From NCBI GenBank assembly GCA_951406725.2, contig OX597827.1, positions 65,162,001 through 65,226,000 of the forward strand: a stretch of DNA of 64,000 nt. Direction: 5' to 3'. This DNA is from Octopus vulgaris (Eukaryota). This document shows positions 5,094 through 7,716 of this stretch, piece after piece. Position numbers and translations under genes: made by a program. Position 1 is the stretch's first letter; every line of letters begins with the position of its first letter. The notes under the pieces are model-generated. The model had not been told where the DNA came from, did not search any database, and worked only from the letters and a program-made list of their open reading frames with translations.

Positions 5094-5318
5094 TGAAAAA
5101 ACAAGTCAGGATAGAAAATGCTAAAATAATTTTATAAAGAACATTTCAGTACCAGTTTCAGTAATTGAGACCTTTTCAACTGTAACAATTAAATAATTAA
5201 ATTTAGAAAAATTAAAAGAAAAGTTTGTTTTAAAGAATATTTAAAGTATAGTGTTCAAATATAAGTGGCATTTTCCCTGTTTCTGCCTTTCTCTGTCTCT
5301 CTTGTTTATTCTTGTGGG
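5094..5318 (-). mobile_element. Solo family-A pLTR cassette
   Basis: Matches 1979-2210 and is flanked by TA tracts. The hammerhead-like motif at about 5147-5182 is partly mutated. Confidence 0.8.
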
Positions 5319-6090
5319 TATATATATATATATATATACACACAACATATATATATATATATATATATATATATATATATATATATATATATATATATAT
5401 ATATATATATATATATATATATATATATACAAACAAAGCAACTGACAGGGTCACACACTCATGTAAACAAATAAAAACAGTCACAATTTCGTGCCGTATT
5501 CCTGCCTACACCGCATACCTCTCTGCGTATGTCCATTTATATTGTGACACAGTCCATTAGGAATCTATCAATGAGGATGTTCCACTTCCACACACACACA
5601 CACACACACACACACACACACACACACACACACACACACACACACACACACACACACACACACATATATATATATATATATATATATATATATAAATATA
5701 TCTATATATATAATTTTATTTAATTAACAGAAGTAGCTATAGTATCATAACGGACGTGAGCATACTAGTTCTCCGGTTCATACCAGCGTTTAGTGAAAAC
5801 CAAGTATATTAGTTTATCATCGAAACGTATAGATATTTAAAAAAAATATGAATGAAAAAGGTGAAGAAAATGGATAAAATGGACTTCCAGACTTTATCTA
5901 TTAAATACAGTCCAGTTCATACTGAGAAATTCTTGTCTACAGCTGTATGATAGGAATTTCTTTAGATAAATAACGTCTGTAAGTCAATTTTATACATTGT
6001 CTTCATTTTCCCATATATATATATATACATACATATATATACATATATATATATATATATATATATATATATATATATATATATATATAT

Positions 6091-6260
6091 AACGGGAAGC
6101 TTTATGAAAATAAACAAAAGACGAAGGCAGGTGGAAAACAAACGAACAATTGTATTAGTATGGCGCTCAGGAAATATAAATAAAACAAGTCTTTAACGTT
6201 TCGAGCCTACGCTCTTCAACAGAAAGATACACAGAGAGAAAAAAAACACAGAAAGAAGGA
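6091..6260 (-). mobile_element. Family-B pLTR cassette (inverted copy of 9871-10039)
   Basis: Near-identical reverse complement of 9871-10039, with TA tracts on both sides. The hammerhead-like motif is at 6190-6227. Confidence 0.85.
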
Positions 6261-6493
6261 TATATATATATATATATATATATATATTTGAGTAGTTGAA
6301 TGAATTATCTTATTATGGATAATACGAATTAACCGATACTTGGGTAACAAATTCACATCAGAAAAAACACGGTTGAAGCTACGTGCCTAGGGCATAGATT
6401 ACGTGCTTTCGTGTGGAAATTTGTATGTTTATTTTAAAAATATAAATATATGAAAGAATGGAGTTGAACGACGAATTAACAAAATTCCTTTAG

Positions 6494-6574
6494 TTTCGAC
6501 ATATGTTTCGAAGGCTGCATATTCCTAATTGCGAAGGAATGAGGAGTAAATTATGCCGCTTTCTCATCATGAAA
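6494..6574 (-). ncRNA. Hammerhead-like motif with a long stem II (family E), inside the TA-flanked block 6288-6640
   Basis: Reverse complement: tttc-ATGATGA-GAAAGCGGCATA...TATGCAGCCTTC-GAAA-CATATG-TC-gaaa. Stem II pairs at 10 of 12 positions, stem III is palindromic and the triplet is GUC. Confidence 0.65.
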
Positions 6575-7123
6575 AGCAAGGAACTTATGTCAACATCAAA
6601 ATGCACAAAAAATGATTGCTCACACGGAGCCCATAGCGATCTATATATATATATATATATATATATATGGTTGTATCGCACGTTCGACGTACGATATAAC
6701 GGGATAATAATAATGTCCTCGCAAAAAGTTCTGCTCAAGATACCAGTAATAACCCTTGACAAAACGAAACTCTCGGCTTTACTCTGCTGTGGACTCTCTG
6801 CGTATATATAAATTTATATTGTGACAGTCCATTAGGAGTCAAACAATGGGGATGTTCTACTTCCACACAACACACACACATATCTATATCTATTTATCTA
6901 TCCATCCATCTATCTATCTATCTATCTATCTATCTATCTATCTATCTATCTATCTATCTATCTATCTATCTATCTATCTATCTATCTATCTTTCTATCCA
7001 TCTATCTATCTATCTATCTATCTATCTATCTATCTATCTATCTATCTATCTATCTATCTATCTATCTATATATATATATATATATCTATCTATCTATCTA
7101 TCTACACACACATATATATATAT

Positions 7124-7488
7124 CTGTGTGGTAAGTAGCTTGCTAACCAACCACACGGTTGCGGGTTCAGTCCCACTGCGTGGCATCTTGGGCAAGTGTC
7201 TTCTACTATAGCCCCGGGCCGACCAATGCCTTGTGAGTGGATTTGGTAGACGGAAACTGAAAGAAGCCTGTCGTATATATGTATATATATGTATATGTGT
7301 GTGTTTGTGTGTCTGTGTTTGTGTTTGTCCCCCTAGTATTGCTTGACAACCGATGCTGGTGTGTTTACGTCCCCGTCACTTAGCGGTTCGGCAAAAAGAG
7401 ACCGATAGAATACGTACTAAAAGGTGGTGCTCCAGCATGGCCGCAGTCAAATGACTGAAACAAGTAAAAGAGTAAAAGAGTAAAGAGT
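7124..7488 (+). mobile_element. SINE S1
   Basis: B box GGTTCAGTCCC, CORE-like segment and S1 tail with (GTAAAAGA)n. Confidence 0.9.
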
Positions 7489-7515
7489 ATATATATATAT
7501 ATATATATATATATA

Positions 7516-7716
7516 GTTAATCCAAACAAGAAAACACAAAAAAAAACGCAATAACGCGAGGACGTGGAACAAATATAGTATTATTGGACGCTCAGGAAAG
7601 AAGGAAAGAAGGAGGGTTTAACGTTTCGAGCGGAGCTCTTCGTCGAAAACATAGAAGGAAAGATCCAGAGAAGGGAAGACAGAGGAAAAAAATCGCCAAC
7701 AGTACACACGAGGTCA
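7516..7716 (-). mobile_element. Solo family-C pLTR cassette with a hammerhead-like motif (7616-7650)
   Basis: Homologous to 17068-17265 and TA-flanked. The reverse complement contains GTTT-TCGACGA-A-GAGC(TCC)GCTC-GAAACGTT-AAAC. Confidence 0.75.

What the first reader, a model, noticed from the sequence alone, without database searches (positions are those of the whole stretch)
5094..7716. Solo ribozyme-bearing cassettes stacked in (TA)n tracts: a candidate non-autonomous, retrozyme-like system
Seen: within 2.6 kb, four different 170-350 bp cassettes (A at 5094, B at 6091, E at 6288, C at 7516) each lie between TA runs, lack an ORF and contain a hammerhead-like fold. More occur at 3541, 17068, 47830, 48141 and 61762. 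The two C copies end at nearly the same point (CACGAGGTCA). Known: non-coding hammerhead retroelements (retrozymes) exist, and PLE machinery has been proposed to mobilise the animal ones. Inference: these may be defined short RNAs copied by PLE RT/endonuclease into TA microsatellites, coupling ribozyme spread to microsatellite abundance.
Basis: partly seen in the sequence, partly recalled or inferred. Interest (0 to 1): 0.72.

Follow-up and report, generated by a model that had tools for sequence, protein, structure and literature searches.

The report
Fixed-start Penelope ends in TA repeats
The four short repeats are the ribozyme-bearing end pieces of four ordinary Penelope-type jumping genes, but many copies stop at one fixed point that likely marks where the parent's RNA begins, so they are likely dead by-products that record how these elements copy themselves.

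Summary
The cassettes are real, but none is a stand-alone element. A, B, C and E are each the terminal repeat (pLTR) of a Penelope-like element (PLE) with RT and GIY-YIG found in this genome (85-98% identical; three Neptune-type, one Hydra-type). Each carries a minimal type I hammerhead fold; B's core deviates and three of the four local copies are mutated. Single minimal hammerheads from truncated PLEs, and TA targeting, are in print. Yet short and long copies share subfamilies, ends do not sit at the ribozyme cut, and solos are not tandem. Best reading: run-off cDNAs from the 5' end of master-element RNA, mostly dead ends. Rare 445-490 bp B tandems look like retrozymes being born. No RNA evidence was obtainable. 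This scan has reported the same fixed-start pattern in other genomes.

The parts
5095..5318 (-). Cassette A: pLTR of a Neptune-type PLE; U3-A8 variant minimal hammerhead at about 5147-5182 (stem III palindrome mutated); 5' end about 10-20 nt short of the family pile-up
   Evidence: 84-85% to pLTRs of the tandem element in L290
5057..5094 (-). Optional 38-bp PLE 'tail' of cassette A (second RT start, inferred), beginning with an element-encoded TA-like run
   Evidence: tail concept from PMC11167929
6091..6260 (-). Cassette B: pLTR of a young Neptune-type PLE; hammerhead-like fold 6188-6228 with U at position 6; ends about 38 nt short of the family pile-up
   Evidence: 98% to L292 pLTR and to window 9871-10039
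6288..6641 (-). Cassette E: pLTR of a Hydra-type PLE; hammerhead about 6492-6575 (family core canonical, this copy C3A); 5' end at the family pile-up
   Evidence: 94% to L508
7516..7716 (-). Cassette C: pLTR of a Neptune-type PLE; hammerhead about 7615-7650 (family U4C, this copy also C3U); 5' end at the family pile-up
   Evidence: 93% to L281
6260..6287 (.). (TA)n run shared by B and E; other flanking runs 5047-5056, 5319-5429, 6013-6091, 6642-6668, 7488-7515, 7717-7729
7987..10039 (+). 5'-truncated family-B PLE: RT, internal deletion of most of the endonuclease at 9006/9007, 3' UTR, pLTR with hammerhead at 9908, then (TA)n
1980..3373 (.). Family-A insertion of textbook PLE form: inverted pLTR 1980-2270 joined to a 5'-truncated copy (GIY-YIG 2250-2600, pLTR 3072-3373)
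17068..17273 (-). Second C copy (other subfamily), 5' end at the pile-up
47830..47990 (-). B-related copy, 5' end at the ATG; no TA run at its 3' end
48141..48400 (-). A copy that runs past the pile-up into a CTT repeat
61762..61947 (-). Diverged B-related copy, 5' end about 5 nt inside the ATG

Best explanation
The cassettes are the terminal repeats of four protein-coding Penelope-like families, and they were likely pasted into (TA)n by each family's own enzyme as short run-off copies of the 5' end of the parent's RNA, so most are predicted dead ends. Shown: nesting in RT plus GIY-YIG elements, one fixed 3' end per family, TA flanks, a pile-up of 5' ends 0-10 nt ahead of an ATG (ACG in A), and shared subfamilies of short and long copies. 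Inferred: the endonuclease nicks (TA)n; the nick primes inside the RNA, helped by a TA-like run that the element encodes just after its 3' end; the RNA starts at an initiator-like site in the 5' pLTR, so RT runs off after 200-360 nt; trimming and AT microhomology blur the end. The hammerhead is a passenger in the solos. Long copies likely come from another template (circular or multimeric RNA), because their upstream pLTRs do not stop at the pile-up.
For: Parents: B, 1079-aa ORF between two pLTRs; C, RT and EN 57% identical to B 1.8 kb upstream of the cassette; A, 4.4-kb tandem; E, RT and EN in L507, L508, L497. Pile-up in position-ordered samples from C1: C 41 of 70 end at -5..+9 of the ATG, 0 of 7 in the next 45 nt; B 21 of 54 at risk, 2 in the next 15 nt, 0 of 31 in the next 45; p about 1e-46 and 7e-14 against the downstream hazard; E 10 of 25 at risk, A 9 of 44. 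Genome-wide 1673 vs 43 for 27-mers either side of the C site. About 21 of 30 copies picked for the C1b start motif begin exactly there, at TCATTC. Short and long copies intermix: 11 of 18 short B copies are as close to a long copy as to any short one; no supported short-only clade beyond one of 4 that holds a duplicated pair; C1b has long members (3 of 30); a variant seen first in two solos occurs 15 times, 9 with upstream sequence. Mini-tandems that return to this region carry 244-316 nt of the master's 5' UTR, not host flank. Print: start site and internal promoter lie in the pLTR (PMC2377424, PMC8557442); RT starts inside the RNA, needs sequence downstream of the start and does not need hammerhead cleavage (PMC11167929).
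Against: No RNA 5' end was seen. 0 of 20 upstream pLTRs of full-length B copies stop at the pile-up (p 0.011 against B1), so a second template must be assumed. The initiator match is by eye and recalled (TCAKTY); it is exact only in C1b. B has a predicted hairpin over the site (-16.9 kcal/mol in 90 nt, no shuffle control). The A pile-up is weak and four of its nine copies are two inverted pairs; E also decays steadily before its peak. In C, 33 of 54 short copies are nearer another short copy than any long one, though long copies are fewer (35) and skewed to one subfamily. No C element with a 5' pLTR or intact ORF was found. In the anole element the RT start is not homologous to the cut DNA, unlike the pairing proposed here. 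Samples come from one chromosome and need an exact 25-32-mer, so they lean to young copies.
Confidence: 0.6

Rival explanations
1. The solos are self-propagating non-autonomous units (retrozyme- or SINE-like): each keeps the internal promoter, makes its own short RNA and is copied in trans by the PLE enzyme.
For: Fixed ends at both sides; 63 of 70 C copies are short; some keep the whole initiator-like start; pLTRs sufficed for mobilisation in trans in a rotifer (PMC3846280); non-autonomous PLEs such as MRC1 exist.
Against: No short-only lineage; solos are not tandem; most lose the first bases of the start; they lack the downstream sequence that the anole enzyme needs; the tandems found carry master 5' UTR; three of four local cores are mutated.
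Confidence: 0.15
2. The fixed 5' end is a stall or cut on a long RNA (hairpin, bound protein, ribosome at the short upstream ORF), not the RNA's start.
For: Predicted hairpin across the B site and small stems at C and E; an ATG with an early stop sits at the site in B and C.
Against: A sequence-borne stall should act on the second pass too, but 0 of 20 upstream pLTRs end there; folding at A, C and E is weak (-7 to -12 kcal/mol); four unrelated families stop at the same distance from the ATG.
Confidence: 0.18
3. Ordinary random 5' truncation of PLE insertions, with apparent peaks from AT microhomology to the TA target.
For: This is the published reading of single minimal hammerheads (PMC4209133); 12 of 69 C and 12 of 69 B copies are shorter, with scattered ends; E and A show much gradual decay and inverted junctions; many ends fall on AT.
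Against: Hazard rises from about 0.4 to 5.7% per nt and falls to zero beyond the site in C; 39-fold drop over about 30 nt genome-wide; AT sites further upstream collect no ends.
Confidence: 0.07

Closest known systems
[quoted passage not shown]
   Same: Short helix I, bulged base before stem II, palindromic stem III, U3-A8 core variant (family A), thousands of mostly single copies ascribed to truncated PLEs.
   Different: The parts read report no fixed 5' end; family B has U at position 6, not described in those parts.
Neptune/Nematis-type EN+ PLEs (families A, B, C) and Hydra clade (family E) (Craig et al. 2021, PMC8557442; passages and sections 10, 11)
   Same: RT plus C-terminal GIY-YIG; CX2-5CxxC linker in A, B, C; DKT, RW, no CCHH, CxxC and CxH around the E and N residues in E; partial tandems, inverted 5' copies, tail, (TA)n targets.
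   Different: Solo pLTRs outnumber long copies about 9 to 1 in C and end at one site; E's linker region holds an Asn-rich stretch and the CxCX5C motif was not seen. Clades were assigned by motif, not by tree.
Animal non-LTR retrozymes (Cervera and de la Pena 2020, PMC7229834, passages; Li et al. 2026, 10.64898/2026.07.22.740005, part 1 of 5 and passages)
   Same: Non-coding, type I hammerhead, PLE pLTR origin; the rare 445-490 bp B tandems have the same form.
   Different: Retrozymes are defined as tandem repeats with complete or canonical hammerheads and circular RNAs; the window cassettes are monomers with minimal, partly broken cores that begin and end away from the cut site.
Anole Poseidon PAc in vitro (Frangieh et al. 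2024, PMC11167929; parts 1-2 of 4)
   Same: Fixed internal RT start gives the fixed 3' end and optional tail; AT-rich nicking; hammerhead cleavage not needed.
   Different: No run-off solo product was described in the parts read; here the element encodes TA-like bases at the start site.

Membership tests
EN+ PLE pLTR | Sequence is the terminal repeat of an element coding RT and C-terminal GIY-YIG | tested here: met
   all four, 85-98% identity (C parent lacks a 5' pLTR in the copy found)
EN+ PLE pLTR | Partial tandems, inverted 5' copies, optional tail | tested here: met
   tandems in A, B, E; inverted partner within 1 kb in 11 of 50 A, 20 of 50 E, 1 of 70 B, 0 of 70 C; tail in A
Neptune/Nematis-type PLE (A, B, C) | CX2-5CxxC linker before GIY-YIG and CCHH motif | tested here: met
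   read from translations; Neptune versus Nematis not resolved, no tree built
Hydra-clade PLE (E) | DKT, RWK-like motif, no CCHH, CxxC and CxH flanking E and N; CxCX5C linker | tested here: inconclusive
   first four met, linker motif not seen
Minimal type I hammerhead | Core CUGANGA (or U3-A8), stem II, GAAA, palindromic stem III, helix I | tested here: met
   family level for E (canonical), A (U3-A8), C (U4C in 55 of 70); architecture only for B
Minimal type I hammerhead | A at core position 6 | tested here: not met
   family B: U or other non-A at position 6 in 69 of 70 copies
Minimal type I hammerhead | Self-cleavage (as dimer) | not testable with these tools
   needs in vitro assay; no Rfam match
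Non-LTR retrozyme | Two or more tandem units, each with a complete hammerhead | tested here: not met
   window cassettes are monomers; 3 of 240 sampled copies had a direct partner within 1 kb; met only by rare B mini-tandems elsewhere
Non-LTR retrozyme | Unit defined by hammerhead cleavage | tested here: not met
   0 of 30 C and 0 of the 19 B copies shown (of 30; output cut) start at the predicted cut; one B copy starts 6 nt from it
Non-LTR retrozyme | Abundant linear and circular monomer RNAs | not testable with these tools
   only assembled contigs were offered
Non-autonomous PLE (MRC1-like) | Own lineage that propagates apart from the autonomous family | tested here: not met
   sample-level only, a small hidden lineage is not excluded

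The most novel reading that the evidence does not exclude
The genome records a two-template cycle for Penelope elements. RT can start only where the pLTR is followed by the 5' UTR. On the linear mRNA that gives a strong-stop-like run-off that integrates as a solo hammerhead cassette; on a circular or multimeric RNA it gives full-length copies with a 5' pLTR of any length; and on short circles or by repeated template jumps it gives new retrozyme-like tandems, born independently at a dozen loci. Solo ends would then map the RNA start of every PLE family from DNA alone.
Probability: 0.3. Interest if true: 0.62.

Novelty: new member of a known kind. Interest (0 to 1): 0.38.

Why it matters
How Penelope elements regenerate their terminal repeat, and what their hammerhead does, is open (PMC2377424 and PMC8557442 say so). 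The cassettes themselves are a known by-product, but their fixed 5' ends, the absence of that stop in full-length copies, and the freshly made mini-tandems are footprints that separate the linear, circular and template-jump models, and family B still has an intact young element on which to test them. They also suggest how animal retrozymes arise from PLE ends, and warn that thousands of genomic hammerhead hits are passengers.

Tried and rejected
Rfam: the window scan was swamped by microsatellite-like miRNA models, and the focused scans found no hammerhead. RNA: no RNA holder listed; contigs of three possibly-RNA runs and one other run cover the B pLTR and 5' UTR, with one contig crossing from pLTR into the ORF and no GT-AG joint, but contigs cannot show starts, strand or level; used neither for nor against. 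A reference-free end caller was confounded by TA runs and inverted copies; a first fixed-reference run under-called diverged subfamilies and hid the A and E peaks; both were replaced. The first E pattern held a private mutation (4 hits; 703 after correction). Short-only subfamilies: C1b and a 1-2 nt B deletion variant both proved to have long members. Lariat or back-splice origin of the mini-tandems: rejected, junctions are not at GT or AG and donors span 70 nt. B solo as the inverted partner of the B element at 7987: unlikely, since older C and E copies lie between them, but not excluded. Lunse et al. 2017 on PLE hammerhead variants was not held; seen only as cited in PMC6765202, so B's core variant may be described there. 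No supplements were opened; those of PMC8557442 and PMC4209133 may list these families. A, E sampling stopped at 50 copies each, so their pile-ups are less sure.

Full report
Setting. The window is G000:C14:65162001-65226000 in a 2.8-Gb genome of 227 contigs. The label 'octopus' comes from earlier scan notes on this genome and my recall of its SINE, not from a call that names G000.

Observation. The four cassettes are where stated, between TA runs, without ORFs (19-46 aa). All read on the minus strand as minimal type I hammerheads: core, bulged base, stem II, GAAA, palindromic stem III, 3-5 bp helix I. A descriptor for this layout gave 11 distinct window hits (8 in these families) against 1.4 per shuffle in 30 shuffles. 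Rfam does not detect them. Family cores: E canonical; A the U3-A8 variant described in PMC4209133; C U4C in 55 of 70; B non-A at position 6 in 69 of 70. The local A, C and E copies carry further damage. 17068, 47830, 48141 and 61762 are members; 3541 is not.

What they are. B (6091-6260) is 98% identical to the last 170 bp of an RT-bearing element at 7987-10039 in the same window, and an A copy ends a GIY-YIG-bearing insertion at 1980-3373. Parents were found for all four: B, a pLTR-ORF-pLTR element with 1079 aa from the first Met (L292; RVT_1 and a weak GIY-YIG match); A, 4.4-kb tandems (L289, L290); C, RT and EN 57% identical to B, 1.8 kb upstream of the cassette (L281; 3 of 12 long C loci fetched had EN in place); E, RT and EN in L507, L508, L497. 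By motif A, B, C are Neptune/Nematis-type and E is Hydra-like. Exact 25-32-mers give lower bounds of 5506 (C), 4668 (B), 1444 (A) and 703 (E) copies, control 0.

3' ends and target. Each family has one 3' end, followed by (TA)4 in 55 of 60 C, 44 of 47 B and 11 of 12 E copies whose end motif was found (of 70, 70, 50), background 9.8%; the A figure (30 of 30) is inflated by its own tail. In full-length B and E, and in the A tail, the element itself continues with TA-like bases, which suggests pairing of the nicked target with the RNA (inference). TA bias is in print for Neptune, Hydra and Naiad.

I took the first matches on contig C1 in position order, so selection does not depend on length. C: 41 of 70 end within -5..+9 nt of a conserved ATG, none of the 7 survivors in the next 45 nt. 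B: 21 of 54 at risk end there, 2 in the next 15 nt, none of 31 in the next 45. With one duplicate removed per family, p is about 1e-46 and 7e-14 against the hazard downstream. Genome-wide, two 27-mers 3 nt apart across the C site count 1673 and 43. E: 10 of 25 at risk end in 15 nt at the equivalent ATG; A: 9 of 44, partly inverted pairs. In subfamily C1b about 21 of 30 copies chosen for the start motif begin exactly at it, within TCATTC, which matches the initiator consensus as I recall it. Random truncation is thus refuted for B and C. The ends are not at the ribozyme cut (0 of 30 C; 0 of 19 B shown).

Are the short copies their own lineage? No sign of it. The commonest B haplotype holds 11 long and 7 pile-up copies; supported clades mix both classes in B and C, with one 4-member short-only clade that includes a duplicated pair. 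Against this, 33 of 54 short C copies are nearer a short than a long copy, with fewer and skewed long references. C1b has long members. A deletion variant shared by two solos occurs 15 times, 9 with upstream sequence. Direct-repeat partners within 1 kb occur in 3 of 240 copies.

Two further footprints. First, 143 B loci keep the pLTR-to-5' UTR junction. Of 30 read, 23 run on into the ORF; their upstream pLTRs start at scattered points, 3 shorter than the pile-up, 0 at it, 20 longer (p 0.011 against B1). Full-length copies therefore do not come from an RNA that ends at the pile-up. Second, 6 of those loci join 5' UTR position +244..+316 back to the pLTR (two upstream of, two at, two downstream of the pile-up). 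A pattern aimed at such joints, biased to this range, found 23 at 14 loci, two of which share flanks; 7 loci repeat the same joint 2-4 times, up to five 492-bp units on C8, starting at the normal 3' end in TA and truncated at the 5' side. Joints differ between loci, and loci with the same joint differ in subfamily bases, so they arose repeatedly. They look like rolling copies of a short RNA that spans the pLTR and the master's 5' UTR (inference; DNA-level duplication of a deletion product is not excluded).

Mechanism. Shown: parentage, fixed 3' ends, TA flanks, 5' pile-up, shared subfamilies. From print: the start site and an internal promoter lie in the pLTR (PMC2377424, passages; PMC8557442 section 10); RT starts inside the RNA, needs downstream sequence, and works without hammerhead cleavage (PMC11167929). 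Inferred: RT starts in the 5' pLTR of a master's RNA and runs off its 5' end, leaving a solo that lacks the downstream element and is a dead end (0.6). Rivals: stall or cut (0.18), self-propagating units (0.15), random truncation (0.07).

Known or new. Single minimal hammerheads from truncated PLEs are stated in PMC4209133; solo pLTRs, put down to recombination or deletion, in PMC3846280 (passages); retrozymes derived from pLTRs, with monomers as likely non-transposing offspring, in 10.64898/2026.07.22.740005. The octopus repeat paper has no hit for hammerhead or ribozyme (PMC13282606, term search only); PMC12602865 added nothing (term search). I found no report of a fixed 5' end of solo pLTRs in searches (listings, and the passages cited); subscription papers and supplements were not seen. 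Earlier notes of this scan report the same fixed start, and rare tandems, in other genomes; I had reached this reading before seeing them, and they are not independent proof.

Verdict. Real cassettes, known kind, not a new retrozyme system; the fixed start and the mini-tandems make an open question about PLE replication testable. Interest 0.38.

Noticed in passing
L494 (G000:C8:18600-18602 kb), L448, L451, L459, L514-L536: Head-to-tail 445-492 bp units of B pLTR plus 5' UTR, 2-5 per locus, each locus with its own joint: retrozyme-like tandems apparently made anew many times.
   Followed up: partly
window 3541-3700 and 37425-37724: Another repeat family, with an inverted pair at 37425-37724; a hairpin and GAAA precede a CUGAUGA-like stretch, so not a type I layout. 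It may be the permuted hammerhead family of note e1-8670534.
   Followed up: no
window 9006/9007: The B element lacks about 330 bp covering most of GIY-YIG, and is also cut at the 5' side inside RT.
   Followed up: partly
L292:2253-2920: The B 5' UTR has a long pyrimidine tract ending in AG about 390 nt after the pLTR, and GT sites lie just after the pile-up: a possible intron across the pLTR boundary as in Penelope and Chlamys-3; no spliced joint seen in contigs.
   Followed up: partly
L497:1213-2187, L508, L509: Family E ORF holds a long Asn-rich stretch between RT and endonuclease, recalling N-rich inserts of rotifer Penelopes (PMC3846280).
   Followed up: no
window 7124-7487, 4150-4556, 10480-10890, 36050-36460, 46770-47160: Abundant 400-bp SINE-like repeat with an internal (TA)/(TG) run (identity recalled, not tested); PLE ends often sit in or beside its TA runs.
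   Followed up: no
window 5519-5606 and 6794-6880: A 90-bp repeat of unknown kind, 86% identical, lies between the cassettes twice.
   Followed up: no
L375, L376: Two C copies share an internal deletion from stem II to past the cut site, at a short direct repeat.
   Followed up: no
39 position lists; Families differ in insertion form: A and E often come as head-to-head inverted pairs, B and C almost never.
   Followed up: partly
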